DNA of 64,000 nt. It comes from Minisyncoccota bacterium (GTDB lineage: Bacteria > Patescibacteriota > Minisyncoccia > Phycocordibacterales > PALSA-1337). The stretch lies in NCBI GenBank assembly GCA_041666915.1, contig JBAYFZ010000002.1:14771-78770 (forward strand), in the 5' to 3' direction. The notes under the pieces were generated by a model. The model searched no databases. It was not told the origin of the DNA and worked only from the letters and a program-made list of their open reading frames with translations. Shown here piece by piece: positions 5,132 to 58,386 of the stretch. Position 1 is the first letter of the stretch. Every line of letters starts with the position of its first letter. The position numbers and the translations under genes are program-made.

Positions 5132-5380
5132 TTATTTTTTGTAATGATTTGTAATCTGAAAAACTTCAATCACGTCCCCTTTCACGAAAAATAAGGCTCT
5201 GTATTTACGATCAACCCTAAACGAGTAAATTCCATGCCATTTCGGTTCCAGTAATTCTGTGTTTAAAGAAGGATGTTTAATATTCGAAACAAGCAACACG
5301 GTAATCTTTTTCCACTTTGAAGTCAGCTTATGTATTGCCAAATATTCCAATAAATCTGAACGAAGAGGTAAAATCTTCAT
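5132..5380 (-). CDS. putative RelE/ParE-like toxin (second pair)
   Basis: 82 aa; KWHGIYSFRVDRKYRALFFVKGDVIEVFQITNHY resembles the RelE/ParE C-terminal signature. Preceded by a small ORF 11 nt upstream. Confidence 0.45.
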   Translation of the reverse strand: MKILPLRSDLLEYLAIHKLTSKWKKITVLLVSNIKHPSLNTELLEPKWHGIYSFRVDRKYRALFFVKGDVIEVFQITNHYKK

Positions 5381-8823: not shown

Positions 8824-9004
8824 GACAGTTGATTAATCTTGATAGTATTTATTAGATTTGATATGCTTCTATTAGAAGTATGCAATAATAACTTATGAGG
8901 CGCTTTGGTGTTCCCTTAGAATATCTAGGGCTTGAGCTAAAGATAACCACCTTGTGAGACGCTACTTCTAACAAAGAACCCGCTAAGGCGGATTTTTTGT
9001 TAGA

Positions 9005-9674: not shown

Positions 9675-10583
9675 CTATTCCCAATTCACAACCTTAACTG
9701 TCTTTCCGTCAGAAGTTATCTTAACCGTTCCCTTCTCTTTCAAATTGAACTTCTTATCATCTTTAATATAAGCCAGAGGATCTATAACCTCTTTCTTTGC
9801 CTTCGCCCTTAAAACCGTAGACTTATTTGTAACCTTGCGTGAATACACCAAGTACTCTGGCTTAATTTCATTTATCAATTGTGAATAGATATTTTCCGGC
9901 AAAGCACTATGTGAAACTACTAGAACATCTGCATCGCCCAAAGTAGAAGATGGTGAAAAAACTATAGCCCTTTGGGTTTTATTAGAGGCACTACCCAAGA
10001 AGGTAATATTTGTTGAACCAAAAGAGATATTAAATAAAACCTCTGGTGAACTTGTCTTAGAATAAGTAAAATCACTATCTTTGATTGGAAATATGGATTT
10101 TATAGAAACTTTTCCATCTAAAACAATATTATCATCTGCCAAAACTTTGTCTGTTTTTATATTTTCAATATTTAAAGTATCAATAAAAGTAGAATAAATC
10201 TGATCCGTAGAACTAGCCAGACCAACAGTCTCTAATGTAACAGCAGGTACGAAGGCTTGATTGACTTTGTAACGCTCCACCACATCTATGAGGCCCGAGA
10301 CATTTTTACCATCGGTATTGGTAGCCATGATCATATCTATATAATGCGAATAAAAAGGAATAATCTTAGTCAATTCTCTTATAATCTCAGAATTTGGACC
10401 ACCATCAATAAGTATCCTTTTATCTTCTGGAGTACGTATGAACATGGAGCGTCCATTACTTAGAGAAAAAATGTATATCTCTAAAATAGGTGGCCTACTA
10501 GATTCTTTCCAAACGTAACCACCTAGACCACTAGCCAAGGCAGTAGAAGCTACAGCTATAACCAAAGGTTTTGATATATTCAT
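9675..10583 (-). CDS. metallo-beta-lactamase-fold protein resembling the C-terminal domain of ComEC/Rec2; N-terminal signal/TM
   Basis: 302 aa; IYIFSLSNGRSMFIRTPEDKRILIDGG resembles the ComEC MBL-domain opening motif. The separately encoded comEC at 11557..13392 lacks this domain. Shares an upstream box with comEC and comM. Confidence 0.55.
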   Translation of the reverse strand: MNISKPLVIAVASTALASGLGGYVWKESSRPPILEIYIFSLSNGRSMFIRTPEDKRILIDGGPNSEIIRELTKIIPFYSHYIDMIMATNTDGKNVSGLIDVVERYKVNQAFVPAVTLETVGLASSTDQIYSTFIDTLNIENIKTDKVLADDNIVLDGKVSIKSIFPIKDSDFTYSKTSSPEVLFNISFGSTNITFLGSASNKTQRAIVFSPSSTLGDADVLVVSHSALPENIYSQLINEIKPEYLVYSRKVTNKSTVLRAKAKKEVIDPLAYIKDDKKFNLKEKGTVKITSDGKTVKVVNWE

Positions 10584-10585
10584 AC

Positions 10586-10650
10586 CGTAATCATATAGAT
10601 ACGAGTTAAAATCCTGATTAAGAAAGGTTAAAGAAATGATGAAGATTTTT
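10586..10650 (-). promoter_or_regulatory. conserved upstream box (copy 1 of 3) preceding the MBL/ComEC-C gene
   Basis: Minus strand reads cttcatcatttctttaacctttcttaatcaggattttaactcgtatctatatgattacgg, then ATG. Near-identical to the box upstream of comM at 55012..55064 and similar to the one upstream of comEC at 13393..13450. Confidence 0.6.
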
Positions 10651-10757: not shown

Positions 10758-11372
10758 ATGAAACAATTCACCCTAAAAACATTCACCATTCCGGCTCTAA
10801 AAGGAATTTCTGCAAAAAATATTGAGGAGCATTTGAAGCTATACGCTGGCTATGTCAAAAACACCAATCTGATCCTTACGAAGATTGAGGAACTAAAAAA
10901 AGATACTGACTCATCAACCCCCTCAGGACAAGGTAATGCATATATCGTCGGAGAGATAAACAGACGTTTCGGTTTTGAATACAATGGTATGCGCAATCAT
11001 GAAATATATTTTTCTTCATTAGAAGGCGCAACCCCTCTTAGCGATAAAAGTTCCCTCAAAAAAACGATTTCTGAGACTTGGGGATCCTTTGATGCTTGGC
11101 TGGCAGAATTCAAACTTATTGGACTTACTCGTGGCATTGGTTGGGCTATTCTATATTATGATAATAAAGATGGTCGTCTCCTCAATGCTTGGATTGACGA
11201 ACAACATTTGGGACAACTTCAAGGTTGCTCCCCTATTCTCGCTATGGATATGTGGGAACATTCCTATGTAGCCGATTACCAGCCTTCTGGAAAGAAAAAC
11301 TATATTGAAGACTTTTTTGCAAATTTAAATTGGGAGGTTATTGAAGGAAATTTCAAAAAAGCGGTTAGGTAA
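10758..11372 (+). CDS. sod: Fe/Mn-family superoxide dismutase
   Basis: 204 aa; NHEIYF and DMWEHSYVADYQ match the NHxxYW and DxWEHAYY ligand motifs. The first ligand His is conserved (IEEH). Confidence 0.85.
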   Translation: MKQFTLKTFTIPALKGISAKNIEEHLKLYAGYVKNTNLILTKIEELKKDTDSSTPSGQGNAYIVGEINRRFGFEYNGMRNHEIYFSSLEGATPLSDKSSLKKTISETWGSFDAWLAEFKLIGLTRGIGWAILYYDNKDGRLLNAWIDEQHLGQLQGCSPILAMDMWEHSYVADYQPSGKKNYIEDFFANLNWEVIEGNFKKAVR

Positions 11373-11460: not shown

Positions 11461-11557
11461 GAAATACTTTGAGATTTTTGAGATTCTCTAAGAGCGGAAA
11501 ATCCGGGTCGGCCGCCAGCGTTCGCTTCGGCGAATATGCAGTATGGAGGGATCGCTT
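11461..11557. other. GC-rich structured element immediately 3' of comEC, closed by a 10-bp inverted repeat; possible small ncRNA or complex terminator
   Basis: gagattctct ... agagaatctc encloses about 75 nt that is much more GC-rich than the surroundings and contains a gcttcggc UUCG-type hairpin. Confidence 0.3.
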
Positions 11558-13392
11558 CATGAAAATGAGGTGCCCGTCCTCCAGAGAATCTCAAAGTTCT
11601 TGAGGTATTTTTTATCGGTGACAAAAGAGGTGATAATGATTATCTCATCATTTACAGATTCAAAAACGATTACATGTGGTTCTCCTTCATTATCAGGAAA
11701 GAATTTAGTAATCAATAAACGATTATTCTTTCCCTTAAGAATAATATCTGGGTTCTTGAAAATTATCACCATCATTTCAAGTAAGTTTTTACCTTCCATA
11801 TCTTTCTCTGCAAGATGCTTAAAAGTCCTTCTAGAAAAATGTATCGATTTAAATTTTGTATTTAACAATTGAGATACAACAACCGTATTAAAATTAGTCA
11901 AAATCTTATCATCAGGATTATCAATCAAAACATTTTTTGGTAACTTCTGAAATTCTTTAAACAACAAAAGTAATGTATTTGAATCTGATCTTGATCTAAA
12001 AAGTTTAAAGCGGGTAAAAATCTTTCTTCTTAAGTAAACCCCCGCAAACACCACATAAAATCCAACGACCCACCAAAAGGAAAATGCTTCAACTTGTAAT
12101 GAAGCAAACGGGAATCTGGCGAAATTGTTGACCATAAAAAGTTCATAGGAAAGCAAGAGATGACTTGCCCAACCAAAAACTTGAGCCAGTGGTAACCAAA
12201 ACATTCCTACAATCCCAGTAATAAAAACAAAAAGCATGGTTACAGGAATAAAAGGTAGAACCAAAATATTGACCAACATTCCAATTATTGAAATCTGTCC
12301 CATCATATACAAGATGTAAGGTGAAACAAATATTTGTGTAGCTATAGTTGAAGCAACAATACCTCGTATACCAAATCTCTCCGTAATAAATGTCAGGCGC
12401 TTTTCTATTGGACCAGCAAGAATGATAAGTCCTAGAGTTGCCAAAAATGAAAGCTGGAAAGAAGGGTCATGCAAAAGTATCATCGGATTTTGAACGAGCA
12501 TGAGAAGACCAGCAAACATGAGCGCATGAATAACACTATAATCACGTCGGATAATGTCAGCGAAAAGAGCAATACTCGCCATCAGACAAGAACGAACAAC
12601 CGTGGCACCACCGCCAACCAAAATTCCAAACAAAGCGATACCAATACCACCAACTGATATTCCCCAAACTCTAGGCAAAAATGAAAGTAGGCGACGCATA
12701 GCGTCTGCAACAATAGTGATGTTGTATCCAGAAAGTACAACGATATGTATAAGTCCAACTTTTCTAAAATCATCTAACAGATCATTCCCCAGAGCAGACT
12801 TCTCCCCCACCACCAGACCAGATGCCAGAGCAGAGTGTGGTTCCCCTAAAGTTTTCTTCAAATTATTTACGAAATTTCTTTTCAGAGAAAATAATTGTGA
12901 AGAGAGTTTAGAAAAAAATGATTGAATTCCAAACCAAGATGAATTATTTTGTTGAACAATTTTCGTCAATGAAACAACCGCACTTTTCATCTCAAAATAA
13001 ATATCATCTTTTGCCAGATAATTTTTGTAATCAAAGATGCGACCCGAACCACTGTCAAAATTTGTCGGCTGTAATAATTTTCCTTTGAAAGAAACTTTAT
13101 CTCCAAAAGAAAATCGTGGATAAAGTTTGGTTTTCAAGCGAATGAGAAATTCTGTATTACAATATTTTGACGTACTCACTACCGAAAGATCCAAAACTGA
13201 GACAACAAAGACTTGTCCGTTTTCTTTTCGTTCTGGTTCATTCTCAATAATCCCAACTCCTTGAACATTCTGTTTCACACAATCACCTATATCTGGTGGC
13301 TCTATACCAAAAGATTGCCAGATACGAAAAATGGCAGTAGCTATGAATATACTCCAAAAAATAAAAACACCTCTCTTCATGAGAAGCATCAT
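11557..13392 (-). CDS. comEC: competence protein ComEC/Rec2 (DUF4131 plus Competence domain, no MBL domain) with an uncharacterised ~150-aa C-terminal extension
   Basis: 611 aa; N-terminal OB-like region, polytopic membrane core with GLIHIVVLSGYNITIV. The C-terminal MBL domain is missing and appears to be encoded separately at 9675..10583. Confidence 0.8.
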   Translation of the reverse strand: MMLLMKRGVFIFWSIFIATAIFRIWQSFGIEPPDIGDCVKQNVQGVGIIENEPERKENGQVFVVSVLDLSVVSTSKYCNTEFLIRLKTKLYPRFSFGDKVSFKGKLLQPTNFDSGSGRIFDYKNYLAKDDIYFEMKSAVVSLTKIVQQNNSSWFGIQSFFSKLSSQLFSLKRNFVNNLKKTLGEPHSALASGLVVGEKSALGNDLLDDFRKVGLIHIVVLSGYNITIVADAMRRLLSFLPRVWGISVGGIGIALFGILVGGGATVVRSCLMASIALFADIIRRDYSVIHALMFAGLLMLVQNPMILLHDPSFQLSFLATLGLIILAGPIEKRLTFITERFGIRGIVASTIATQIFVSPYILYMMGQISIIGMLVNILVLPFIPVTMLFVFITGIVGMFWLPLAQVFGWASHLLLSYELFMVNNFARFPFASLQVEAFSFWWVVGFYVVFAGVYLRRKIFTRFKLFRSRSDSNTLLLLFKEFQKLPKNVLIDNPDDKILTNFNTVVVSQLLNTKFKSIHFSRRTFKHLAEKDMEGKNLLEMMVIIFKNPDIILKGKNNRLLITKFFPDNEGEPHVIVFESVNDEIIIITSFVTDKKYLKNFEILWRTGTSFS

Positions 13393-13450
13393 ACAAGCGC
13401 GAGTTTAAATCCTGATTAAGAAAGGTTAAAAAAATGATGAAGAAAACTTA
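13393..13450 (-). promoter_or_regulatory. conserved upstream box (copy 2 of 3) preceding comEC
   Basis: Minus strand reads gttttcttcatcatttttttaacctttcttaatcaggatttaaactcgcgcttgtatgatg overlapping the ATG. Confidence 0.55.
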
Positions 13451-18476: not shown

Positions 18477-18518
18477 ATTATACCTAAAAATTGATCACTT
18501 AAACAACACAAAACACAT

Positions 18519-18653
18519 AAATTTGGATGCGATTCTACCCAGTAGGCGATCCTGCTGGATCGGGAGCAAGCGAGGCTTGTGACTAGGCTGTATGAATAAT
18601 ACTGCCTAGTCACAAACGAGTGAAGCGACAACGAAGCGCGCCAAATTTACGCG
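18519..18653. repeat. intergenic repeat element, copy A (hairpin core ttgtgactaggc...gcctagtcacaa); carries a 25-nt insert relative to copy B
   Basis: About 110 nt near-identical to 36718..36824. Both copies lie directly 3' of a minus-strand gene stop. Copy A has the extra cccagtaggcgatcctgctggatcg. Confidence 0.7.
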
Positions 18654-18659
18654 TTTTGA

Positions 18660-23775: not shown

Positions 23776-23782
23776 TATAGTT

Positions 23783-23820
23783 TAGTGCAAAATTAAAAGT
23801 GCAAAATGAAAAGTGCAAAG
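23783..23820. repeat. tandem AGTGCAAA motifs (three copies) in the pilB-pilC intergenic region
   Basis: tagtgcaaaattaaaagtgcaaaatgaaaagtgcaaag. The same motif forms the arms of the palindrome at 26468..26601 and recurs at about 42745..42775. Confidence 0.5.
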
Positions 23821-23823
23821 TTA

Positions 23824-25572
23824 TTACTCTGAAACGACACGGAGCACTTCTTCAATCGTTGTCATTCCCTGTACACACTTGAATATACCGTCTTCTAACA
23901 TTGTGAGCATTCCTTCTTTCTTGGCCTGAATTTCAATATCATTTGAAGTAGCATTTTTCATTATAAGATCTTTGATAGATTGAGTCATAACCAAGACTTC
24001 GTGGATACCAACACGACTCTTGAAACCATCGTCATCTCCAGCTGGTACAGCTTTCCAGAAATTGATCTTATCCCAAGTGTCGGACGATTTTACTATTTTT
24101 TCTGTCTTCAAATAACCAAGGACTCTGTCTAGATCAACAACTTTTGCCAATTGATTGAATTCATCCTTGGATAACTTGTATTCCTGTTTTGAATCAGTAA
24201 GTTTACGAACCAAACGCTGACCGATAACAATATCCAAAGTAGAAACCAACAAAAATGGCTCAACACCCATATCCAAAAGACGAGGCATCGCTCCTGCTGC
24301 CGAGTTGGTATGCAAAGTAGAAAGAACCAAGTGACCAGTCAAAGCGGCATTGACTCCAAGTGCTGCGGTTTCACCGTCACGGATTTCTCCAACCATGATA
24401 ATATCTGGATCTTGACGGACCAAAGTTCTGATACCTTGTGGAAATGAGAAACCGATCTCTGGACGAACTTGAGTTTGATTGATACGAGCCATCTGGTATT
24501 CAATAGGGTCTTCAATAGTTGAAATATTCACATCTGGAGTATTCAAAATATCCAACATGGTATACAAAGTCGTAGTTTTTCCAGATCCAGTGGGACCTGT
24601 CATGAGTATCATTCCCGTCGTCTTATTCAAAGTTTTATGAATCGCTTCCAAGCCTTCGCCGTGGAAATTCAAATATTCCAAAGTGAATCCGGATATACTT
24701 TCTCTAAGTAAACGCATAACGATCTTTTCACCATAATATGTTGGCAAAATAGAGACACGGAATGAAACTTTTTCTTCATTCATGTCAACTTTGAAACGAC
24801 CGTCTTGAGGTAAACGTTTTTCATCCAATTTTAGATTGGCCAAAACTTTGATACGAGCAGATACCGAAGGACCGGCCTGTTTTGGAAGTACCATCGCATC
24901 ATGTAAAAGTCCATCTATACGATAACGAACCAAGACTTGTTCCTCCATTGGTTCTATATGGATATCGGAAGAATTTTGCAAGATAGCGTGTTTTATCAAA
25001 GTATCAACAATACGCACAACCGGCATATCTTCTGCGATCTTTTTTAAATCAGCTTCTGAGGCAGTATCCCCTTCTTCTTCTGAAATCATCTTGAGTGAAG
25101 CGGTCTCTTTTTGGATCAAATCACCAAATTCAGCCTTGAGACTCTTTTGATACTGAACCAATGCTTCTTTAATAGAATCCGAATCAGTCAAACGAGGTAA
25201 TATTTTCAAATTGACTTTCTTTTTAATGAAATCAATAGCGGGCAAATCGTTGACATCCAACATCGCAACTTCCAAAGCGACATCTGTCTTTTTAAAAGCG
25301 ACAATGTTATGAGCACGAGCAATCGGTTCTGGAATAAGAGAGAGGGTCTCAAAAGGTAATTTTTTACCTTTAAGGTCTACGAAAGGAATACCAAAGACAT
25401 AAGCTTGCATTCTACGGAGATTGTCTGCACTGATCTTGCCTGACGAAATCAATACATCGCCTAAATGCTTTTTCTTTTTCTCGCTTTCTTTCTTTGCATC
25501 TTCAAGGTCATCCTTGGTTACAAGACCAGAATCAAGAATAAATTTATATAATTGGGTATCTTCAACGAACAT
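23824..25572 (-). CDS. pilB: type IV pilus assembly ATPase PilB (GspE family); start placed at the MFVEDTQ Met
   Basis: N-terminal GspE-N region, Walker A TGPTGSGKTTTLY, Asp/His boxes. The longer ORF to 25644 would run into an upstream terminator hairpin. Confidence 0.9.
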   Translation of the reverse strand: MFVEDTQLYKFILDSGLVTKDDLEDAKKESEKKKKHLGDVLISSGKISADNLRRMQAYVFGIPFVDLKGKKLPFETLSLIPEPIARAHNIVAFKKTDVALEVAMLDVNDLPAIDFIKKKVNLKILPRLTDSDSIKEALVQYQKSLKAEFGDLIQKETASLKMISEEEGDTASEADLKKIAEDMPVVRIVDTLIKHAILQNSSDIHIEPMEEQVLVRYRIDGLLHDAMVLPKQAGPSVSARIKVLANLKLDEKRLPQDGRFKVDMNEEKVSFRVSILPTYYGEKIVMRLLRESISGFTLEYLNFHGEGLEAIHKTLNKTTGMILMTGPTGSGKTTTLYTMLDILNTPDVNISTIEDPIEYQMARINQTQVRPEIGFSFPQGIRTLVRQDPDIIMVGEIRDGETAALGVNAALTGHLVLSTLHTNSAAGAMPRLLDMGVEPFLLVSTLDIVIGQRLVRKLTDSKQEYKLSKDEFNQLAKVVDLDRVLGYLKTEKIVKSSDTWDKINFWKAVPAGDDDGFKSRVGIHEVLVMTQSIKDLIMKNATSNDIEIQAKKEGMLTMLEDGIFKCVQGMTTIEEVLRVVSE

Positions 25573-25624: not shown

Positions 25625-25660
25625 AAACGAAAACCCGCAACCATATTTCAGATTGCGGGG
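25625..25660 (-). terminator. rho-independent terminator (cccgcaa-N12-ttgcggg plus T-run on the minus strand) for the 25708..26217 gene
   Basis: Minus strand: ccccgcaatctgaaatatggttgcgggttttcgttt. Identical stem-loop to the terminator at 26618..26654. Confidence 0.7.
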
Positions 25661-26376: not shown

Positions 26377-26460
26377 AAATTGCCTCAAATTGACACCTAT
26401 GCTATACTGTTGTCGTTACGTATCTGTTCGCCCACCGGCGAACTTATTTGTTAAAAGGGG
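26377..26460 (+). promoter_or_regulatory. promoter plus short leader hairpin, copy 1 (sigma70-like TTGCCT-17-TATACT followed by gttcgcc-cacc-ggcgaac and a T-rich tract)
   Basis: 84 nt near-identical to 28408..28491 (upstream of nusA). -35 at 26380..26385, -10 at 26403..26408. Confidence 0.55.
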
Positions 26461-26467
26461 CGATGTT

Positions 26468-26601
26468 TAGTGCAAAGTGAAAAGTGCAAAATGCAAAATT
26501 TTAGTTAATGGTTAATAGTTATTATATTCAAATACTATCTAACTCAAAAACTCAATAACTTTTCACTACAACTTTGCATTTTGCACTTTTCACTTTGCAC
26601 T
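26468..26601. repeat. long perfect inverted repeat: 29-nt arms (agtgcaaagtgaaaagtgcaaaatgcaaa) separated by about 75 AT-rich nt
   Basis: Left arm 26468..26497, right arm 26573..26601 as exact reverse complement. Arms are built from AGTGCAAA-type units. Confidence 0.7.
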
Positions 26602-26617
26602 TACAATACAATTTAAT

Positions 26618-26654
26618 AAAAACAAAAACCCGCAACCATATTTCAGATTGCGGG
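26618..26654 (-). terminator. rho-independent terminator for the 26681..27097 gene; identical stem-loop to 25625..25660
   Basis: Minus strand: ccccgcaatctgaaatatggttgcgggtttttgttttt. Confidence 0.7.
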
Positions 26655-26680
26655 GTGTGAAAGCTTGAACTTCCAGTAAG

Positions 26681-28407: not shown

Positions 28408-28491
28408 AAAATTGCCTCAAATTGACACCTATGCTATACTGTTGTCGTTACGTATCTGTTCGCCCACCGGCGAACTTATTTGTTAAAAGGG
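28408..28491 (+). promoter_or_regulatory. promoter plus leader hairpin, copy 2, directly upstream of nusA
   Basis: Same 84-nt sequence as 26377..26460; nusA ATG at 28523. Confidence 0.6.
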
Positions 28492-28522
28492 TAAAAATTT
28501 AATAAAAACTAAATATAACAAC

Positions 28523-29689
28523 ATGTTTGATCTAAAAGTAATAAACTCCGTAGTACAGCAATTGGAAGAAGAGCGTGGTATTCCCCGCGAAAAGACTCTT
28601 GAAGCCATCTCTATGGCCTTCGCAACAGCCTACAAAAAGGAATACGGCAAAAAAGGACAGATAGTTCGCGCTTCATTTGACCAAAATTCTGGAAGTGTAG
28701 AATTCTGGCAGGTTAAAATTGTAGTTGACCGCAACCAAGTCATCATGGAGGGTGATGAGGAACATCAGGAAAATCTCAAAGATACAGCCTTGGAAGACAT
28801 CAAAATCCGTTTCAATCCAGAACAACACATGTTCATTGAAGACGCTCGCAAAATAAAGAGAGACGTTGTTATTGGTGATGAATTGGTATTTCCTCTAGAA
28901 ACCAAGGCTGACTTCGGCCGTATTGCCGCTCAAACAGCAAAGCAGATTATAATCCAAAAGATTCGTGAGGCTGAAAAAGTCTCTGTTATGAGTGAATATG
29001 GTAAAAAAGAGGGTGACATTGTCGCTGGTATAGTAGAACGCGTAGAACGTGGCGTTGTATATATAGACATGGGACGTGCTGTCGGTATTATTCCTTACGA
29101 GGAGCAGATTCCTAGTGAACGCTGGAAAACTGGAGATCGTATCCGTGCTTATTTGTACGCCGTAGAAGAAACACCAAAAGGCATTGTTTTGAAACTCTCA
29201 CGTGCTCATCCAAAATTCTTGGCAAAACTTTTTGAAACAGAGACTCCTGAAATCGCTAGTGGTGTAGTAGAAATAAAAACTATTGCCCGCGAAGCTGGTT
29301 CACGTTCCAAGGTTGCTGTCATCTCTCATGATGCCCATATAGATCCTATTGGTTCTATGGTTGGACAAAGAGGTGTTCGTGTTACAACCGTTACTAGTGA
29401 ACTCTCTGGTGAAAAAATAGATATCGTAGAATGGAATGAGGATCCTGCTCTGTTTATTGAAGAATCTTTATCTCCTGCTGAGGTTGTCTCTCTTGAACTA
29501 GATGAAAAAGAACATCGTGCAATAGTCACCGTAACTGAAGATGAACAATCTCTAGCTATCGGTAAGGGTGGTCAAAACGTTCGTCTAGCCGCAAAGCTTA
29601 CTGGTTGGAAAATTGATATCAAATCAATTGGTGGAATTGAAGATTTGAAAGTTGGCGGTGAGGACGAAGAAGAGGCTGAAAAGAAATAA
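28523..29689 (+). CDS. nusA: transcription termination/antitermination factor NusA
   Basis: 388 aa; N-terminal NusA domain, S1 and tandem KH domains (KIDIV...GKGGQNVRLAAKLTGWKIDI). Confidence 0.93.
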   Translation: MFDLKVINSVVQQLEEERGIPREKTLEAISMAFATAYKKEYGKKGQIVRASFDQNSGSVEFWQVKIVVDRNQVIMEGDEEHQENLKDTALEDIKIRFNPEQHMFIEDARKIKRDVVIGDELVFPLETKADFGRIAAQTAKQIIIQKIREAEKVSVMSEYGKKEGDIVAGIVERVERGVVYIDMGRAVGIIPYEEQIPSERWKTGDRIRAYLYAVEETPKGIVLKLSRAHPKFLAKLFETETPEIASGVVEIKTIAREAGSRSKVAVISHDAHIDPIGSMVGQRGVRVTTVTSELSGEKIDIVEWNEDPALFIEESLSPAEVVSLELDEKEHRAIVTVTEDEQSLAIGKGGQNVRLAAKLTGWKIDIKSIGGIEDLKVGGEDEEEAEKK

Positions 29690-34465: not shown

Positions 34466-34523
34466 CAACCTTACTCTCTCGTTACCGTTAAAAAATCCTT
34501 TGCAAGTTTGCAAGGGATTTTTT

Positions 34524-34723
34524 AGTGCCACAATCGCAAGAACATTCCTTTTGAAAACCTGCGAGACTCGCTCCGTTTATTTTCTAAGTAAAATGCTCAG
34601 GAATTACGGAGGACTAATCGTCCTCTCGTAATTCCAAGGACATTCGCATTTTACTAAGAAACTAAAACTGCGCTCAGACAGGTTCTCGGTTTTCAAGAGG
34701 AATGTTCTTGCGATTGTGGCACT
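34524..34723. mobile_element. MITE-like palindromic element, copy 1 (about 170-nt core shared with 58101..58308; locus-specific 25-nt terminal inverted repeats)
   Basis: Outer inverted repeats agtgccacaatcgcaagaacattcc / ggaatgttcttgcgattgtggcact. Core gaaaacctgcgagactcgctccgttta...ggaggactaatcgtcctctcg...ggttttc is itself an imperfect palindrome and near-identical to the 58-kb copy. Confidence 0.6.
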
Positions 34724-34771
34724 ACCATCAACACCTTGCCAACTTGTCCCCTATTCGTTAGACTGGCTTTC

Positions 34772-36681: not shown

Positions 36682-36717
36682 GATTTCAATATTTCAATTA
36701 TAACTGTAAAGACTTGG

Positions 36718-36824
36718 AAATTTGAATGCGATTCTAGGAGCAAGCGAGGCTTGTGACTAGGCTGTATGAATAATACTGCCTAGTCACAAACGAGTGAAGC
36801 GACAACGAAGCGCGTCAAATTTAC
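36718..36824. repeat. intergenic repeat element, copy B (same family as 18519..18653)
   Basis: ggagcaagcgaggcttgtgactaggctgtatgaataatactgcctagtcacaaacgagtgaagcgacaacgaagcgcg is shared. Lies directly 3' of the clpP stop. Confidence 0.7.
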
Positions 36825-36829
36825 AAGTC

Positions 36830-37411
36830 TTACTTCTTGACTGATGTAACCTGATCGACTAACCCATACTTCTTAGCTTCTTCTGCGTCCATGAAGAAAT
36901 CGCGATCAACATCCTTTTCAATCTTCGCCAAAGTCTGACCTGTATTTTTTGCAAGAATCTTATTCAACATCAAGCGAGTCTTCAAAATATGTTTTGCACT
37001 GATCTCAATATCAGAAGCCTGACCTTCTGCACCACCCAAAGGCTGGTGAATCATAACTTCAGAATTTGGTAAGGCTATACGCTTTCCTTTTGTACCAGCA
37101 GAGAGAACTAAGGCTGCACCCGATGCCGCAAGGCCAACACAAACTGTAGAAATATCATTTTTAATATGTTGCATCGTATCTATGATAGCCAAAGTCGCTG
37201 TTACAGAACCGCCAGGAGAATTTACATAAAGAGAAATCTCTTTCTTTGGATCTTCGGATTGTAAGAATAGAAGCTGAGCAATTACCAAGTTGGCAGTATG
37301 GTCATCTATAGGCCCGCCAAGAAAAATGATGCTATCTTTTAGCAAACGAGAATATATATCATAAGCGCGCTCTCCAAAACTTGATTTTTCTATTACTGTT
37401 GGTATTAACAT
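36830..37411 (-). CDS. clpP: ATP-dependent Clp protease proteolytic subunit
   Basis: 193 aa; [10 protein letters not shown] (catalytic Ser), MIHQP (His). Confidence 0.95.
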
Positions 37412-40814: not shown

Positions 40815-41892
40815 CTATTGGGTTTTGATTGTTAGATTCCTAATCACGGCTTCCAACTTTTTACTATTACCATGACTTATCAACCCTAAATAGGACTGCA
40901 CTGTAGCTGATTTACCGTTACATGATTGTAATTTTCGAAACATTCTCCTTTTAGCACTTGTCCGCAGAACACGGTGGTCAGGAAAATTGATCCACCCAAG
41001 ATAATCGTTACCGGAAGCAATCGTACGTATAGAGACTTTTTTTGGATGTAGCTGGAGTATTAATCTATTCTTCAGAAAATCAGTGATCTTTTGAATAATT
41101 TGGTATAGCCAAGTTCGGTCAGGTGACAAAATTACAAAATCATCAGCATAACGGATATAATATTTCGCTTTTATTTTATGTTTCATATACTGATCAAATT
41201 CATTCATATATATGTTCACCAGCAACTGCGAAGTAAGATTGCCAAGTGGTAGACCGACACCTTTTCCAGTTGAAGAAAAACTATGCACGATTTCTGAGAT
41301 AAGAGCAACGATATCCTTATCTGGAATATACGTTTCAAGAATCTGAAGCAAGTTTCGCTGATCAATCGAGGCAAAGAATTTACGTATGTCGCATTTGAGC
41401 ACCCAAGCAGTTCGAGTATGGTTATGAGTGACTTTATTGGAGAAAACCATAAATCTATTGACGGCTTTATGTGTCCCCTTTCTCAACCGGCAAGAGTATG
41501 AGTCAGATATGAATGTCTTATCAAAAAATGTGTAAAGTATTCGATAGATGGCATGATGTAATAGTCTGTCACGAACAGTGGCTTTGTGTATGTCTCTCGG
41601 CTTGGGATCATTGATTTTAAATGCTTCATATGGCGAATGCTTGTAATTCCTATTTGTAAGATCCAGATGCAATGAAATCACATTACTCATCAAGTCACGT
41701 TCAAATTCCTGAACATCTTTTCTTGATTGCTTACCTTTCTTAAATTCTTTCCAAGCCAAAAGAAGATTTTCGATAGAAATGATATCATCATAGGTATGAT
41801 TAGATCTGATTCGTCGCAAACTATGAAAGCCCCCCCCAACCGGATTTTGCCGGTCTTGAATAATGTCAAAAATGCTTATTTGTTGTGGCATA
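40815..41892 (-). CDS. diversity-generating retroelement (DGR) reverse transcriptase; ATG at 41892 or, more likely, TTG at 41819
   Basis: RT motifs incl. YIRYADDFVI, and LPLGNLTSQLLVNIY with SQ in place of the QGxxxSP seen in other RTs, which is the DGR-RT hallmark. Overall collinear with Bordetella-phage-type DGR RTs. Confidence 0.85.
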
Positions 41893-42233
41893 GTTATTAT
41901 CAAGATTTACCAAAATTTAATCGGAACTCCTTCGGGTACCGCATCGATTCATTGTTTGTTGAAACAATTGAAGCTATTGTCACCGCCAGTTTCTTGTCAC
42001 AGCAAGAAAAGCATCCGTATATCCGACTTGCTATACGAAAACTTGATACACTCAAGATATTGCTCATGATCCTATGGGAAACTAAATCACTCAACGACAA
42101 GAAATACATCGCACTATCAGTAAAACTCGATGAAATCGGTCGCAACCTAGGTGGTTGGAGTGGACAACTTGCAAAATCTCTCGACAATACTCGAGATAAA
42201 CAAAACTCCCCCATGAAGACGAGGGAGAAATGA
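41823..42233 (+). CDS. avd: DGR accessory variability determinant (Avd-like four-helix-bundle protein), encoded on the strand opposite to the RT
   Basis: LDEIGRNLGGWSGQLAKS matches the Avd C-terminal motif (IAEVGRILGSWIARV-type). Belongs to the 23S-IVS/four-helix-bundle family. Confidence 0.7.
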   Translation: MKAPPNRILPVLNNVKNAYLLWHSYYQDLPKFNRNSFGYRIDSLFVETIEAIVTASFLSQQEKHPYIRLAIRKLDTLKILLMILWETKSLNDKKYIALSVKLDEIGRNLGGWSGQLAKSLDNTRDKQNSPMKTREK

Positions 42234-42238
42234 AGAGA

Positions 42239-42367
42239 GTTGCGTGACGGAGAGCCGGATTGTTACCGTTCCAATTGTTGTCGAGCCAGTTCCAATTGAG
42301 AATCACCTTGTCGCCGTTCTCGTAGAGATACGGGACATTGAGGTTACCGTTGCGGTTCCGCACGTAT
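42239..42367 (-). repeat. DGR template repeat (TR)
   Basis: About 128 nt, roughly 85% identical to 42791..42917. On the coding (minus) strand the mismatches sit almost exclusively at TR adenines (AAC/AAT codons). Shares an identical GC-rich 18-nt 3' end (cggctctccgtcacgcaa) with the VR. Confidence 0.85.
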
Positions 42368-42433
42368 ATGCAAAATGCCTCCCATACCACCACCCTTTGA
42401 ATACTCTCAAGGTTGAATCGAATTCGGCATCTC

Positions 42434-42630
42434 ATTCAGCAGAATGACCTACTGAGCTAATGCCATAGCATTTTACACCAAGTATCTTCAATTTTTGAAG
42501 TGTCTACATAAACCCTCCGAGAGAAGCCTGATTCAGCAGAATCACCTACTGGGTTGACCGCTCTCGTTCTCAGCTTATGGATACTGGATTCGGCCGCTGG
42601 AAGCCTTGACCGCCAGCAGATTCGCCTACT
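42434..42630. repeat. three degenerate direct repeats (cagcagaat[g/c]acctactg, cagcagattcgcctact) in the TR-VR spacer
   Basis: Copies at 42434..42456, 42531..42553, 42612..42630. Related to the 25-nt insert cccagtaggcgatcctgctggatc at 18541..18565, in inverse orientation. Confidence 0.5.
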
Positions 42631-42778
42631 ACCAGATATAAGTTTACCATATGCAGAAAACCCACACGATTTCATCATGTGGGTTTTGAATGTCAGCGGC
42701 TCATTCCATGCCGAGTGGTTAGACCACCAAATTTTTAGGACAAAGGTCAAAGTGCAGAAAGTGCAAAGTGACCAAGGT

Positions 42779-43414
42779 CTAAGTGCTAACTTGCGTGACG
42801 GAGAGCCGAAGAGTCCCGTACCAATCGTTGCCGAGCCAGTCCCAATTGAGAATCACCTTGTCGCCGCACCCGTAGAGATACGGGACAGAGAGGCTACCGA
42901 GGCGGTCCCGCACGACTGATGCCCAGCCGAAGACTGCCTTATCTTTAAAGTATTTCCTGAAAAAGACAATACCTTTCTTCTGGATTTCTTCAAGGTCTCG
43001 AAGACCAAGACAAGTCTTCAACGTGTCGGTTTCCCTGAGATGAGTGTAGATTTTGTTTCCCCCGATACACCCATCCTTCTGACCATCATGTAACCATTGC
43101 TCCACCTTGGTGATGTCATATTCCGTAGGACCGACATTCTCCAATTTCGGATGCATCACTTCCTTCACCCAATCTGGATATGAAGGACGAATGGAGCGAT
43201 CTACGCGGATAACAGGGTCAATCGCCAGTTCTGGTTCAAGGATGGGTTTGGGCTTGATGATTAATTCCGCTTCGCCACTAGCGAGCCGAATGACCGACTT
43301 AAGGTTATCACCAGTAGAAAGCCAATCCAAAACGGCTGTACTACCGCCGTTGCGTTGGAAAGCGAATTCCAATTTCTGACCCGCACCTTGACTCATTGTG
43401 AACGTGCTATTCAT
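42779..43414 (-). CDS. DGR target protein carrying the variable repeat at its 3' end (VR 42791..42917)
   Basis: 211 aa. The C-terminus ...VPYLYGCGDKVILNWDWLGNDWYGTLRLSVTQVST corresponds to the TR-encoded ...VPYLYENGDKVILNWNWLDNNWNGNNPALRH. Confidence 0.75.
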   Translation of the reverse strand: MNSTFTMSQGAGQKLEFAFQRNGGSTAVLDWLSTGDNLKSVIRLASGEAELIIKPKPILEPELAIDPVIRVDRSIRPSYPDWVKEVMHPKLENVGPTEYDITKVEQWLHDGQKDGCIGGNKIYTHLRETDTLKTCLGLRDLEEIQKKGIVFFRKYFKDKAVFGWASVVRDRLGSLSVPYLYGCGDKVILNWDWLGNDWYGTLRLSVTQVST

Positions 43415-54978: not shown

Positions 54979-55004
54979 CCCGAGATATTGTCTCGGGATT
55001 TTTC
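54979..55004 (+). terminator. rho-independent terminator after the DksA-like gene
   Basis: cccgagatattgtctcggg hairpin plus atttttc. Confidence 0.6.
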
Positions 55005-55011
55005 TTAATCA

Positions 55012-55064
55012 TTTCTTTAACCTTTCTTAATCAGGATTTTAACTCGTATCTGTATGATTATTAG
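55012..55064 (+). promoter_or_regulatory. conserved upstream box (copy 3 of 3) preceding comM
   Basis: atttctttaacctttcttaatcaggattttaactcgtatctgtatgattattag then ATG. One mismatch over about 50 nt to the box upstream of the MBL/ComEC-C gene. Confidence 0.6.
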
Positions 55065-56588
55065 ATGAGCTTAGCAAAAACATACAGCGCACAACTAATA
55101 GGACTCATGTCAGAAGTTGTGACAATAGAAGTAGACATTTCAAACGGTCTTCATTCATTTTCCGTAGTTGGACTCGGCGATAGGTCCGTAGAAGAATCAA
55201 AAGATCGTATATCTGCAGCTATAAAAAATAGCAACTTCAAATCTCCAAAGCAGAAAAACCAGAAAGTAGTCATATCACTAGCTCCAGCAGATATACACAA
55301 AGAAGGGCCTTCTTTTGATCTCGGCATGGCGATAGCTTATCTATCTGCATCAAAAGAGATAGATTTTTCTCCAGAAAATAAACTATTTTTAGGAGAATTA
55401 TCACTTGAAGGAAACTTGAGAAAAATCAGTGGTATATTACCGATTCTTTGCCAAGCAAAAGCCCAAGGTTTCACCGAAGCTTTCATTCCAAAAGACAATT
55501 CCGAAGAATCATCCTTGGCCCAAGGCATAACCACATATCCCGCCTCCACCTTAAATCAAATCATTGAACATCTTACTGGTATAAAAAATATAAAACCGAA
55601 TGAAACCATTTATTCAAATCCAGAAACATCTTCATCTTTTGGAACAAATATGAACAATGTTCGCGGTAACGAAACAGCCAAACGTGGTTTAGAAATAGCT
55701 GCAGCCGGTGCACACAATATCATCATGTGCGGTCCTCCAGGGACTGGCAAAACCATGCTTGCTCAATGTTTCACTTCAATATTACCGGATCTTTCGTACG
55801 AACAAGCAATAGAAGTCACTGGCATACACTCTACCGCTAGGACACTAGAACGAGGTTTGATATTCCGTCCACCATTTAGGTCGCCCCATCATACAGCCTC
55901 ATACCCATCTATTGTTGGTGGGGGAGGATTTCCAAAACCCGGCGAAATAACCTTAGCCCACAGAGGTGTATTATTTTTAGATGAATTTCCAGAATTTGAC
56001 CGCAGTGTCATAGAAGCTTTACGTCAACCATTGGAAGATAGGATGATAACCATTTCTAGAGCCAGAGGAGTAGTCACTTTCCCAGCACAATGTATCCTCA
56101 TTGCATCTATGAATCCTTGTCCTTGTGGAAAAGGTAGGCGCAATGGTTGTACCTGTACCCTAAAAGCCCTTGAAGCTTACAATAGAAAAATGTCCGGACC
56201 TATCATAGACCGACTAGATATATGGCTAAACGTTAGTAAAGTAGATTACAAACAACTTGGTGCCAAAGATTCGTCAGGAGAAAGTTCAGAAACTATAAAA
56301 GACCGAGTTATTGGAGCAAGAAAAATTCAAGAACAAAGATTTGCGTCCCACGGAATTCAAAAAGTCTTCAATGCCGAGATGAATGCTTTGGATATAGAAA
56401 AAATTGTTATTCTAGACGATGACGCTCGTATATTACTTACTTCATCAGCAGAAAAATTGGAACTTTCTGGTAGGGCTTTTCATAGGGTTATAAAGGTGGC
56501 ACAGACCATTGCTGATTTAGAAAAGAGCAGTTCAGTTAAAAAGCATCATATTTTGGAGGCACTGCAGTATAGGCAGAAAGTGGGGTGA
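55065..56588 (+). CDS. comM: Mg-chelatase-like AAA+ protein ComM/YifB
   Basis: 507 aa; N-terminal Lon-protease-like S5 fold, Walker A GPPGTGKTMLA, C-terminal ChlI-like. Confidence 0.9.
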   Translation: MSLAKTYSAQLIGLMSEVVTIEVDISNGLHSFSVVGLGDRSVEESKDRISAAIKNSNFKSPKQKNQKVVISLAPADIHKEGPSFDLGMAIAYLSASKEIDFSPENKLFLGELSLEGNLRKISGILPILCQAKAQGFTEAFIPKDNSEESSLAQGITTYPASTLNQIIEHLTGIKNIKPNETIYSNPETSSSFGTNMNNVRGNETAKRGLEIAAAGAHNIIMCGPPGTGKTMLAQCFTSILPDLSYEQAIEVTGIHSTARTLERGLIFRPPFRSPHHTASYPSIVGGGGFPKPGEITLAHRGVLFLDEFPEFDRSVIEALRQPLEDRMITISRARGVVTFPAQCILIASMNPCPCGKGRRNGCTCTLKALEAYNRKMSGPIIDRLDIWLNVSKVDYKQLGAKDSSGESSETIKDRVIGARKIQEQRFASHGIQKVFNAEMNALDIEKIVILDDDARILLTSSAEKLELSGRAFHRVIKVAQTIADLEKSSSVKKHHILEALQYRQKVG

Positions 56589-56766
56589 TTCCTGACAAGA
56601 CAGAATTGTCTTTTACAAACCCTGCGTATCCCGAGGAACTCCTCGCTCCTGCATTTCTCCTTACAATTTTTTTCGTGGCGCTTAATTATCTCTGGAAATG
56701 CTAGTTGCTCGTCGCTCGGGAGAAATACTCGGGTTTGAAAAAGACAATTCTGTCTTGTCAGGAATC
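56587..56766. mobile_element. MITE-like element with perfect 28-nt terminal inverted repeats (gattcctgacaagacagaattgtctttt), filling the comM / M23-peptidase intergenic space
   Basis: Left end overlaps the comM stop. The ends loosely resemble those of the 34.5-kb and 58.1-kb elements (gaaaacctgcg, caaaaagaatgtt). Confidence 0.5.
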
Positions 56767-56787
56767 ACTAACAATGATTAGAAATTT

Positions 56788-57891: not shown

Positions 57892-58100
57892 AACATATAG
57901 TTCGCGCTGGCAATAGTCCGTAAAGGTCTTTCTTTCGTTCGGTGTTGGTAACTTATATATTTATATGGCTCTACTTAGCCATAATTATTAAATCAAATTT
58001 CAAGTGACCTATCTAGACTAGCAAGAAGGAATTTATTGTCAATGATAGCTATACACAGTCATTTTAATTGATTAGGTGTCAAATAATGTGGTCGGAATCA

Positions 58101-58350
58101 GGTCAGAAAATAACAAAACATTCTTTTTGAAAACCTGCGAGACTCGCTCCGTTTACTTTCTAAGTAAAATGCTCAGGAATTACGGAGGACTAATCGTCCT
58201 CTCGTAATTCCAAGGACATTCGCATTTTACTAAGAAACTAAAACTGCGCTCAGACAAGTTCTCGGTTTTCAAAAAGAATGTTTTGTTATTTTCTGACCCG
58301 ACTCCTCTCTAAAAGAGTGGTTTTCGCAGGTTTTCAAAAAGAATGTTCTG
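58101..58350. mobile_element. MITE-like palindromic element, copy 2 (58101..58308), plus an adjacent partial inverted end fragment (58321..58350)
   Basis: Core near-identical to 34524..34723. Outer inverted repeats here are ggtcagaaaataacaaaacattc / gaatgttttgttattttctgacc. Confidence 0.6.
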
Positions 58351-58386
58351 CCAGTTTTCAATCATCTCTGTGTTAAACTAACCTCC

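What the first reader, a model, noticed from the sequence alone, without database searches (positions are those of the whole stretch)
34524..34723. Novel MITE-like palindromic element family (two near-identical ~200-nt copies plus one related element)
Copies at 34524..34723 and 58101..58308 share a ~170-nt core that is itself an imperfect palindrome centred on ggaggactaatcgtcctctcg. Each copy has different, locus-specific ~25-nt perfect outer inverted repeats. The 58-kb locus also carries an extra inverted end fragment (58321..58350). A third element (56587..56766) has perfect 28-nt terminal inverted repeats and similar end motifs. All are intergenic and abut gene ends. This is consistent with non-autonomous transposable elements, or alternatively long-hairpin RNAs.
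Basis: seen in the sequence. Interest (0 to 1): 0.6.

Follow-up and report, generated by a model that had tools for sequence, protein, structure and literature searches.

The report
Hairpin repeat elements with copy-specific stems
A candidate-phylum bacterium (Paceibacterota) carries small non-coding DNA insertions that fold into about 200-nt hairpins; they look like miniature transposons, but each copy has its own perfectly paired outer stem and none has the usual target-site duplication.

Summary
Elements c1 (34523-34724) and c2 (58094-58305) share a 166-nt core with 5 differences. An inverted left-end fragment lies at 58315-58357. Element c3 (56585-56768) shares only the end motifs. All three fold into long hairpins (z -12 to -16).

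The host is a Candidatus Paceibacterota metagenome-assembled genome. Related genomes with conserved gene order lack the elements at all three sites, so these are lineage-specific insertions.

They are not textbook MITEs:
- There is no direct target-site duplication.
- No transposase is in the window.
- Public genome, metagenome, viral, plasmid, phage and Rfam searches found no other copies.

Outside a family-conserved inner inverted repeat of about 20 nt, every copy has a copy-specific stem (perfect run of 16-18 bp). Where the orthologous empty sites can be read, these stems are absent. A second hairpin family, here called D3 (18509-18658, 36709-36831, plus a copy in a related species), has the same layout.

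My best reading is a mobile hairpin element whose basal stem is made or renewed by self-templated (fold-back or template-switch) synthesis. That mechanism is inferred, not shown. This is a new variant of a known kind, of moderate interest.

The parts
34523..34724 (+). Element c1, whole hairpin (202 nt). It lies between the terminator of the 163-aa gene (34489-34524) and the conserved tig promoter (34736-34764).
   Evidence: absent from L008, L010, L014, L024, L025
34523..34540 (+). c1 copy-specific outer arm, left (TAGTGCCACAATCGCAAG). It pairs perfectly with 34707-34724.
   Evidence: 18 perfect pairs outside the c1/c2 shared core; no other match in the window at up to 3 mismatches
34541..34706 (+). 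c1 core, shared with c2 (166 nt, 97%). It has an inner inverted repeat AACATTCYTTTTGAAAACC / GGTTTTCAARAGGAATGTT, a 3-nt TGC bulge on the 5' side, an asymmetric interior and an apical hairpin GGAGGAC-TAATC-GTCCTC.
   Evidence: (D1)
34707..34724 (+). c1 copy-specific outer arm, right
58094..58305 (+). Element c2, whole hairpin (212 nt). It lies between the conserved block upstream of uvrD/pcrA and the uvrD start codon, and is divergent from the M23/LysM peptidase gene.
   Evidence: the L017 alignment breaks at window 58093/58094, and L018 lacks the element
58094..58116 (+). c2 copy-specific outer arm, left (GGAATCAGGTCAGAAAATAACAA). The inner 16 pairs are perfect; the outer 7 contain 2 mismatches. 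It pairs with 58283-58305.
58117..58282 (+). c2 core (5 differences from c1, including one compensatory pair)
58283..58305 (+). c2 copy-specific outer arm, right
58315..58357 (-). Solo left-end fragment of the c1/c2 family in inverted orientation (GAACATTCTTTTTGAAAACCTGCGA...), 9 nt to the right of c2
   Evidence: (I6)
56585..56768 (+). Element c3 (184 nt), a related subfamily with the same end architecture and a different interior. It lies between the convergent comM/yifB-like and M23 peptidase genes, and its left arm contains the comM stop codon.
   Evidence: in L017 the two stop codons are 2 nt apart, in L018 23 nt
56585..56600 (+). c3 copy-specific outer arm, left (GTGATTCCTGACAAGA). It pairs perfectly with 56753-56768.
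56753..56768 (+). c3 copy-specific outer arm, right
18509..18658 (-). D3a, a copy of a second hairpin family with the same layout: a copy-specific outer stem (10 bp, 2 mismatches), then a conserved AAATTTG inner IR. It carries an extra 27-nt mini-hairpin insert.
   Evidence: (D3)
36709..36831 (-). D3b, the second copy of that family, between the clpP stop and the rsmE start. It is absent from relatives; in L008 the two genes overlap as TAATG.

Best explanation
These are copies of a small family of non-coding, non-autonomous, hairpin-forming insertion elements. They entered intergenic spacers in the lineage of this Candidatus Paceibacterota genome.

Each copy has two layers:
- a conserved core: an inner inverted repeat of about 20 nt, a conserved TGC bulge, an asymmetric interior and an apical hairpin;
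- a copy-specific, perfectly paired outer stem.

I propose that the perfectly paired basal zone (outer stem plus inner repeat, 37-42 bp) is written or renewed by self-templated DNA synthesis. In that process one arm of the folded single strand serves as template for the other, by fold-back priming or intramolecular template switching, at or soon after insertion. This would explain three things: the base of the stem is flawless while the interior keeps fixed mismatches; changes in the inner repeat appear on both arms; and an inverted partial copy of the left end sits beside c2.

Once inserted, the element places a very stable hairpin into UTRs or intercistronic RNA, where it could act as an RNase III substrate, a terminator or an insulator.

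Shown: repetition, hairpin structure, insertion relative to relatives, absence of a TSD, and copy-specific arms.
Inferred: mobility in trans, the fold-back origin of the arms, and any RNA-level effect.
For: Repeat and structure:
- 166-nt core at 97% identity in two unrelated loci, plus a solo end and a related element.
- Hairpins far more stable than shuffled sequence.
- No ORF and no Rfam family.

Empty orthologous sites in syntenic relatives:
- c1 site in L008, L010, L014, L024 and L025: terminator, then 2-16 nt, then the conserved tig promoter.
- c3 site: 2 nt between the stop codons in L017 (comM 88% aa identity) and 23 nt in L018.
- c2 site: L017 is collinear up to the base before the outer arm, and L018 has about 25 nt in its place.

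Arms:
- Where the empty site can be read, both outer arms lie inside the inserted DNA. The arm sequences have only chance-level matches elsewhere.
- The window has no unoccupied non-terminator perfect hairpin of 12 bp or more. This argues against pre-existing hairpin targets.
- Pairing runs without interruption from the arms into the inner repeat in c1, c2 and c3.

Complementarity is maintained: of the 5 c1/c2 differences, 34548 and 34699 form a compensatory C-G to T-A change (p about 0.016-0.045 by simulation).

Other support:
- The same layout occurs in the second family D3, including a copy in another species inserted in the PPase 5' leader.
- Template switching as a way of perfecting inverted repeats is established (PMC5941160).
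Against: - Only two full copies, one fragment and one relative were seen. No other copies were found in GTDB representative genomes, JGI metagenomes, IMG/VR, plasmids or phages, so family size and activity are unknown.
- No transposase or other mobilising enzyme is in the window. The only recombinase is Xer-like, and the only reverse transcriptase belongs to a DGR.
- Simple fold-back copying of a flank predicts that one arm is ancestral flank. Neither arm is visible in the relatives' empty sites. The closest relative is only 88% aa identical and spacer lengths vary among relatives, so this is not decisive in either direction.
- One compensatory pair is weak statistics.
- Selection on an RNA or DNA hairpin would also preserve complementarity.
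Confidence: 0.45

Rival explanations
1. Structure-targeted insertion. The 166-nt core is the whole mobile unit, and it inserts precisely at the centre of pre-existing, locus-specific palindromes or hairpins (for example terminator-like stems). The flanks therefore look like copy-specific inverted repeats.
For: - Insertion sequences that target palindromic units are known; ISKpn1 is listed in the references of PMC3184786, and IS1397 and the IS1111 group are from my own knowledge.
- Long unique hairpins do occur in intergenic spacers of this clade: L018 992-1052 has a 29-bp stem absent from the window's orthologous 8-nt spacer, and L024 1474-1588 is another.
- The arms of c3, D3a and D3b begin within -4 to +1 nt of the upstream stop codon, where terminator hairpins sit.
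- The c1 and c2 arms both end in CAA|...|TTG.
- Some relatives have a hairpin in the clpP-rsmE spacer.
Against: - No residual loop bases or mismatch occur at the arm/core junction in c1, c2 or c3.
- The only perfect hairpins of 12 bp or more in the window are 4 A-run/T-run terminators. The arms are not of that type, and no unoccupied arm-like palindrome exists in 64 kb.
- The readable empty sites of c1 and c3 in relatives show no hairpin at the insertion point.
- The model needs two lineage-specific events at every locus.
Confidence: 0.2
2. Functional structured RNA (or DNA) modules rather than selfish mobile DNA. The hairpins would be regulatory or processing elements, such as RNase III sites, terminators or insulators, or an undescribed ncRNA class. 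Their closing stem would be free to covary while internal loops are conserved by selection.
For: - Conserved unpaired blocks with variable paired stems occur in the D3 family across two species; 12 of 45 predicted pairs show changes on both sides.
- The TGC bulge and sub-terminal motifs are conserved between c1/c2 and c3 despite different interiors.
- There is a compensatory change in the inner repeat.
- Placement in 5' leaders, 3' ends and intercistronic spacers means the elements are probably transcribed.
Against: - They are absent from orthologous sites in all relatives examined, so they are not conserved parts of these operons.
- 97% identity between copies at unrelated loci, with an abrupt loss of similarity at the arms, points to copying rather than ancient paralogy.
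- There is no Rfam match.
- Both strands fold equally well, and no promoter-like site lies inside the elements.
- With 3 sequences, covariation statistics are weak.
Confidence: 0.12
3. Ordinary DDE-transposase MITEs. Their target-site duplications would be too short, palindromic or eroded to see, and their outer inverted repeats would be chance or secondary.
For: - Small size, no ORF, shared inner terminal inverted repeats, ability to fold, intergenic position and insertion polymorphism all match the MITE definition (PMC3184786).
- Possible 2-nt direct repeats flank c2 (TC) and the L024 D3 copy (AC).
Against: - No consistent direct repeat flanks c1, c3, D3a or D3b.
- Copy-specific complementary extensions of 9-23 nt in 6 of 6 elements cannot be chance; a perfect 8-nt extension alone has probability of about 1.5e-5 per element.
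- No IS with these ends is in the window or in the scanned collections.
Confidence: 0.08
4. Assembly artefact: palindromic chimeras created by the metagenome assembler.
For: - Short-read assemblers can create inverted duplications, mostly at contig ends; L018 1-80 may be one.
- Contigs of the same population break inside c1 and c2.
Against: - c1 is spanned intact by a JGI contig.
- c3 is spanned intact by both a JGI and a Logan contig, at 100% identity.
- 188 nt of c2 are present in L006.
- The elements are internal to a 184,762-bp contig and have fixed imperfect interiors.
Confidence: 0.01

Closest known systems
Bacterial MITEs that fold into long hairpins (Correia/CREE in Neisseria, ERIC in Enterobacteriaceae, RUP in Streptococcus pneumoniae)
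   Same: - 100-200 nt and non-coding.
- Terminal inverted repeats around a core, with long stem-loops predicted at RNA level.
- Intergenic and often co-transcribed with neighbouring genes.
- Presence or absence varies between related genomes (definition in PMC3184786).
   Different: - Those families have family-wide terminal repeats at the very ends and direct target duplications (TA for ERIC-type and Correia).
- Here there is no TSD. The outermost 16-23 bp of the stem differ in every copy, and the conserved repeat lies inside them.
REP/REPIN elements mobilised by RAYT (IS200-like Y1) transposases
   Same: - Hairpin-forming intergenic repeats without TSDs.
- Thought to move as folded single strands, a mechanism in which structure rather than end sequence matters (PMC3337134, seen).
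   Different: - REPINs are pairs of short GC-rich REP units with family-wide sequence, usually in tens to hundreds of copies and with a RAYT gene.
- Here the core is AT-rich and about 166 nt, few copies were seen, no RAYT is in the window, and the outer arms are copy-specific.
Insertion sequences that target palindromes (ISKpn1/IS1397 in palindromic units; IS1111-group in REP or attC)
   Same: An element sitting at the centre of a palindrome is flanked by inverted, not direct, repeats.
   Different: - Those targets are themselves repeated families, and unoccupied copies are abundant.
- Here every pair of arms is unique, and no unoccupied counterpart was found.
Quasipalindrome correction and fold-back (template-switch) synthesis
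   Same: A known replication or repair route that makes inverted repeats perfect and can copy one arm, or its flank, onto the other (PMC5941160; fold-back priming in PMC10622511, listed). It fits the flawless basal stem, the compensatory change and the inverted left-end fragment next to c2.
   Different: It is described as a mutational process acting on existing repeats. It has not been described as a regular step that equips each copy of a mobile element with 16-23 bp of new stem, and the source of the arm sequence is unexplained here.
Retron msr-msd non-coding RNA (a1/a2 outer inverted repeats around a conserved fold)
   Same: Variable outer inverted repeats close a structure that contains a long hairpin.
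   Different: A retron needs an adjacent retron-type reverse transcriptase. The only RT in the window belongs to a DGR several kb from the nearest element, and retron RNAs are not dispersed repeats.

Membership tests
MITE (definition as in PMC3184786) | Small (under about 400 bp) and without a transposase gene | tested here: met
   The elements are 184-212 nt and all six frames are broken by stops. A protein-database search with the six-frame peptides found nothing.
MITE (definition as in PMC3184786) | Terminal inverted repeats shared by family members | tested here: inconclusive
   A shared inverted repeat exists (AACATTCYTTTTGAAAACC / GGTTTTCAARAGGAATGTT, with a related form in c3). It is not terminal: 16-23 bp of copy-specific stem lie outside it.
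MITE (definition as in PMC3184786) | Flanking direct target-site duplication | tested here: not met
   No consistent direct repeat occurs at the arm ends or the core ends of c1, c2 or c3. Comparison with empty sites shows none.
MITE (definition as in PMC3184786) | Multiple dispersed copies in the genome | tested here: inconclusive
   Two full copies, one end fragment and one related element lie in 64 kb.
MITE (definition as in PMC3184786) | Evidence of mobility: presence or absence at orthologous sites | tested here: met
   Empty sites were found in L008, L010, L014, L017, L018, L024 and L025. These are other species (at most 88% aa identity), not strains.
MITE (definition as in PMC3184786) | Cognate autonomous IS with the same ends | tested here: inconclusive
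   No further end sequences and no transposase are in the window. The 21-nt end pattern gave only chance hits in 185,579 species genomes. The source genome itself could not be searched.
ERIC/Correia-type MITEs | TA dinucleotide target duplication flanking both termini | tested here: not met
   Flanks are TTTTT/CCATC (c1), GGTC/TCTC (c2) and GGGG/TAAC (c3).
REP/REPIN-RAYT | Inverted pair of short GC-rich REP units, with a RAYT gene in the genome | tested here: not met
   The core is AT-rich with a conserved asymmetric interior. No Y1/HUH transposase was found among the window ORFs I scanned or read. A genome-wide RAYT search was not possible.
Palindrome-targeting insertion (ISKpn1/IS1397-like behaviour) | Target palindromes also exist unoccupied | tested here: not met
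   The window has only 4 perfect hairpins of 12 bp or more, all A-run/T-run terminators. Arm sequences are unique. The readable empty sites of c1 and c3 lack a hairpin at the insertion point.
Any Rfam RNA family | Score at or above the family's gathering threshold | tested here: not met
   Nothing at the elements reached gathering thresholds. Permissive searches gave only sub-threshold matches to plant miRNA-precursor hairpins.
Retron msr-msd | Adjacent retron-type reverse transcriptase | tested here: not met
   The only RT (40815-41903) sits next to a TR/VR pair whose 13 differences all fall at TR adenines, so it is a DGR. It is 6 kb from c1 and more than 14 kb from c2 and c3.

The most novel reading that the evidence does not exclude
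Paceibacterota may carry a previously undescribed kind of mobile hairpin element. Its insertion would write a new, copy-specific, perfectly paired outer stem of 9-23 bp that is derived neither from the target nor from sister copies, by hairpin-primed synthesis or an unknown enzyme. At least two sequence-unrelated families (c1-c3 and D3) would use the mechanism, and one of them persists across species.
Probability: 0.2. Interest if true: 0.7.

Novelty: new variant of a known kind. Interest (0 to 1): 0.45.

Why it matters
- I found no description of repeat or mobile-element families in candidate-phyla-radiation bacteria (one literature search).
- These elements show that even very small, compact genomes acquire hairpin insertions in spacers that were 0-25 nt long. 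The spacers include a 5' leader, a junction of convergent genes, and a formerly overlapping stop/start.
- If the copy-specific outer stems are written by the insertion process, that would be a transposition outcome (an inverted flank signature instead of a direct one) with no described counterpart.
- If the stems are only template-switch products, the elements still provide a natural record of palindrome growth in organisms with reduced DNA-repair sets.
- In practice they break short-read assemblies of these genomes, and they place 37-42-bp perfect duplexes into transcripts.

Tried and rejected
Searches for further copies:
- Left-end 21-mer against one genome per GTDB species: 2 hits, both coding-sequence chance matches.
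- Central 20-mer against JGI metagenome contigs and IMG/VR: 0 hits.
- A degenerate two-anchor pattern that captures c1, c2 and c3: 4 metagenome hits, none a hairpin, and 0 viral hits.
- blastn of c1 and c3 against plasmids and phages: nothing.
- Concatenated six-frame peptides of the core against the 5.8-billion-protein set, to find spuriously called ORFs on other copies: no hit.
- The collections evidently lack the short contigs of the source population, because L004 contains the 20-mer yet was not found.

Outer arms as guides or antisense sequences: only chance-level near matches, for example in relatives' RNase Y genes but not in the window's own copy. Rejected.

Arms as copies of the ancestral flank: not visible in the empty sites. 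Neither confirmed nor excluded, because spacer lengths vary among relatives.

Other checks:
- Homology between the c family and the D3 family: by-eye comparison showed only short shared motifs (TGCG, CGAG, TCGCT). Not claimed.
- Link to the DGR reverse transcriptase: no sequence similarity between the elements and the DGR region, apart from a mini-hairpin motif shared by D3a and the VR-TR spacer.
- Strand preference from G-U pairs: c1 favours the + strand, but the outer c2 mismatches favour the - strand. Uninformative.
- Extending beyond the window through an edge gene failed, because the protein is not on record with that start.
- Relatives' 8-21-kb syntenic loci contain no c-type element.

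Full report
**What is there**

The window holds a 166-nt direct repeat, 34541-34706 and 58117-58282, at 97% identity. The five differences are listed. Each copy is the inner part of a longer imperfect palindrome: c1 = 34523-34724 and c2 = 58094-58305.
- c1 folds at -110 kcal/mol (z -15.5) as + strand RNA, at -109 kcal/mol as - strand RNA, and with z -16 as DNA.
- c2 folds at -101 kcal/mol (z -15.0).
- A third element, c3 = 56585-56768, has a 38-nt basal inverted repeat at 97% and z -12.4.
- c3 shares with c1/c2 only the end architecture. A joint pattern, TTTTRMAAACC(N)TGCG ... CTCGGKTTT, matches exactly these three places, with 0.00 expected by chance.
- An inverted copy of the left end lies 9 nt to the right of c2 (58315-58357, best part 58324-58350).

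Rfam has no family for any of them, and all reading frames are broken.

**Anatomy**

From the outside in, each element has these parts:
- A copy-specific outer stem: 18 perfect bp in c1; 16 perfect bp (23 with two mismatches) in c2; 16 perfect bp in c3.
- A family-conserved, AT-rich inner inverted repeat (AACATTCYTTTTGAAAACC).
- A three-base TGC bulge on the 5' side, present in c1/c2 and, at the equivalent place, in c3.
- An asymmetric interior whose mismatches are identical in c1 and c2.
- An apical hairpin.

Pairing runs without interruption from the outer stem into the inner repeat. The basal 37-42 bp are therefore essentially perfect, while the interior is not.

**Source organism and reality of the sequence**

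The trigger factor and the YifB/ComM-like protein of the window are identical to proteins of a 'Candidatus Paceibacterota bacterium' MAG on a 184,762-bp contig. Short contigs from JGI 3300037810 and Logan SRR6484324 belong to the same population.
- They carry c1 (L004) and c3 (L006, L007) at 100% identity, and 188 nt of c2 (L006).
- Other contigs stop inside c1 or c2, as expected for repeats.
- These are separate assemblies, though possibly of overlapping read sets.

**Are they insertions?**

Gene order around all three sites is conserved in relatives, and the elements are missing there.
- c1 site: five relatives have the upstream terminator, then 2-16 nt, then the conserved tig promoter TTGCCA-17-TAGACT. 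The window has c1 plus 11-12 further bases in that position.
- c3 site: the closest relative found (L017, ComM 88% aa) has the two convergent stop codons 2 nt apart, and L018 has them 23 nt apart. The window has 199 nt.
- c2 site: L017 is about 95% identical in the upstream block and stops being alignable at window 58093/58094, which is the first base of the 23-nt outer arm. L018 has about 25 nt between the conserved block and the uvrD start.

The elements are therefore lineage-specific insertions. At the c1 and c3 sites, where the empty site can be read on both sides, both outer arms lie within the inserted DNA. At the c2 site the L017 alignment breaks at the first base of the left arm.

**What they are not**

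- No direct target-site duplication flanks the arms or the cores.
- The window has no transposase. It has one Xer-like tyrosine recombinase and one reverse transcriptase that belongs to a diversity-generating retroelement.
- No further end sequences occur in the window.
- The arms are not guides. Their only near matches are at chance level.
- Scans of species-representative genomes, JGI metagenomes, IMG/VR, plasmids and phages found no copies. A protein-space trick also failed.

The textbook MITE definition (terminal inverted repeats, direct target duplications, no transposase; PMC3184786) is therefore only partly met.

**The copy-specific arms**

Three observations bear on their origin.
1. 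The window contains only four perfect hairpins of 12 bp or more with short loops. All four are A-run/T-run terminators, and none resembles the arms. Pre-existing arm-like palindromes are therefore not seen unoccupied.
2. Two of the five c1/c2 differences are the two sides of one base pair of the inner repeat (34548 C/T with 34699 G/A). Simulation gives p of about 0.016, or 0.045 if only transitions are allowed.
3. A second, sequence-unrelated hairpin family (D3: 18509-18658 and 36709-36831) has the same layout, with 9-10-bp copy-specific arms outside a conserved AAATTTG repeat.
   - D3b sits between clpP and rsmE, which overlap (TAATG) in relative L008.
   - A diverged D3 copy with yet another pair of arms is inserted in the pyrophosphatase 5' leader of a different species (L024) and is absent from the window's orthologous leader.

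Six of six elements thus carry private complementary extensions, which chance cannot give.

**Most likely mechanism**

I favour mobile, non-autonomous hairpin elements whose basal stem is produced or renewed by self-templated synthesis. The folded single strand would prime on itself and copy its 5' part, or replication would switch template within the palindrome.
- Template switching is an accepted route to perfect inverted repeats (PMC5941160).
- It explains the perfect base against the fixed imperfect interior, the two-sided change, and the stray inverted left end beside c2.
- Its weak point is that simple copying of a flank predicts one ancestral arm, which I could not see in the empty sites.
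- Spacer lengths differ among relatives (2, 16 and 23 nt), and the nearest relative is a different species. The test is therefore not decisive.

**Rival explanations**

- Insertion into pre-existing unique hairpins: plausible by precedent and by the position of several arms right at stop codons, but disfavoured.
- Selected structured RNAs: compatible with the D3 conservation pattern, but at odds with absence from orthologous sites.
- Ordinary MITEs with cryptic TSDs.
- Assembly artefact: excluded by the independent contigs.

**Consequences of insertion (inferred)**

- c2 lies between the conserved upstream block and the start codon of uvrD/pcrA.
- c3 lies at the shared 3' end of two convergent genes and supplies the comM stop codon.
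- c1 separates a terminator from the tig promoter.
- D3b uncouples clpP from rsmE.

If transcribed, the 37-42-bp perfect duplexes should be RNase III substrates, as is known for Correia elements (my own knowledge). They could also act as terminators or stabilisers, as reviewed for ERIC (PMC3184786).

**Verdict**

I file this as a new variant of the hairpin-forming intergenic repeat (MITE-like) kind, not as a member of any named family. The unusual feature, and the one worth following up, is the copy-specific outer stem shared by two families. The evidence base is small (two copies, a fragment and a relative) because the rest of the genome and close relatives could not be searched.

Noticed in passing
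window 40815-43414 (- strand): A complete diversity-generating retroelement.
- RT ORF at 40815-41903 (RVT_1, with an LGNLTSQ motif).
- A bAvd-like ORF at 41727-42233 on the opposite strand, below the Pfam cut-off.
- Template repeat at 42266-42364 and variable repeat at 42816-42914, at the 3' end of target gene 42779-43414.
- All 13 TR/VR differences fall at TR adenines.
- A homologous DGR is in relative L024 (RT 46% identical; TR 4823-4946, VR 5242-5365).
   Followed up: yes
window 18509-18658 and 36709-36831; L024 6292-6417: Second hairpin repeat family (D3). The two window copies have 96-99% identical cores, and the copy in another species is much more diverged. The outer stem is copy-specific, the unpaired blocks are conserved and the apical stem varies. 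The family is inserted at different loci in the two species, and there is no Rfam match.
   Followed up: partly
window 42437-42453, 42534-42550, 42614-42630 (- strand) and 18541-18557 (+ strand): Mini-hairpin motif AGTAGGnnAWTCTGCTG. Three copies are spaced 80-97 nt apart in the DGR spacer between VR and TR. One copy lies inside the 27-nt extra insert of D3a. Six matches at up to 2 mismatches against 0.16 expected. None was found in the relatives' loci.
   Followed up: partly
window 10569-10645, 13388-13446, 55000-55079: A 56-77-nt sequence (87-88% identical) lies immediately upstream of three genes, apparently in the same orientation relative to each: ComEC (11557-13392), the 302-aa ORF 9675-10583 and ComM/YifB (55065-56588). 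It may be a shared promoter or leader of competence-related genes.
   Followed up: no
window 23780-23826 and 26465-26601; L010 4138-4258 and 14376-14458; the end of L017: Arrays of AGTGCAAA(A/G)TG-type repeats arranged as inverted blocks. They are conserved in relatives upstream of nusA and downstream of the RNase Y gene, and may be a regulator-binding array or another repeat family.
   Followed up: no
window 26377-26493 and 28409-28525: A 117-nt direct repeat (87%) that includes a TTGACA/TATACT promoter-like pair and a leader hairpin. One copy lies directly upstream of nusA, the other 2 kb upstream of it.
   Followed up: no
window 11462-11610: Another 149-nt element with 28-nt inverted ends (82%) around a GC-rich interior, downstream of ORF 10758-11372 and overlapping the 3' end of the ComEC ORF. 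It has no other copy in the window or in the fetched loci, and no Rfam match.
   Followed up: no
window 8874-8969: DUF3800-V RNA motif (Rfam RF02964, 76 bits) next to the DUF3800 protein gene 9005-9655, as expected for that motif.
   Followed up: yes
L018 992-1052; L024 1474-1588 and 1647-1871: Relatives carry their own unique long hairpins in intergenic spacers: a 29-bp perfect stem in L018, and 42-nt and 25-nt arms in L024. The L018 hairpin lies where the window has an 8-nt spacer between the PNPase gene and the next gene. Gain of private hairpins seems common in this clade.
   Followed up: partly
window 25625-25660 and 26620-26655: A 36-nt terminator-like sequence (AAAC[G/A]AAAACCCGCAACCATATTTCAGATTGCGGGG) is repeated at 97% identity, 1 kb apart.
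   Followed up: no
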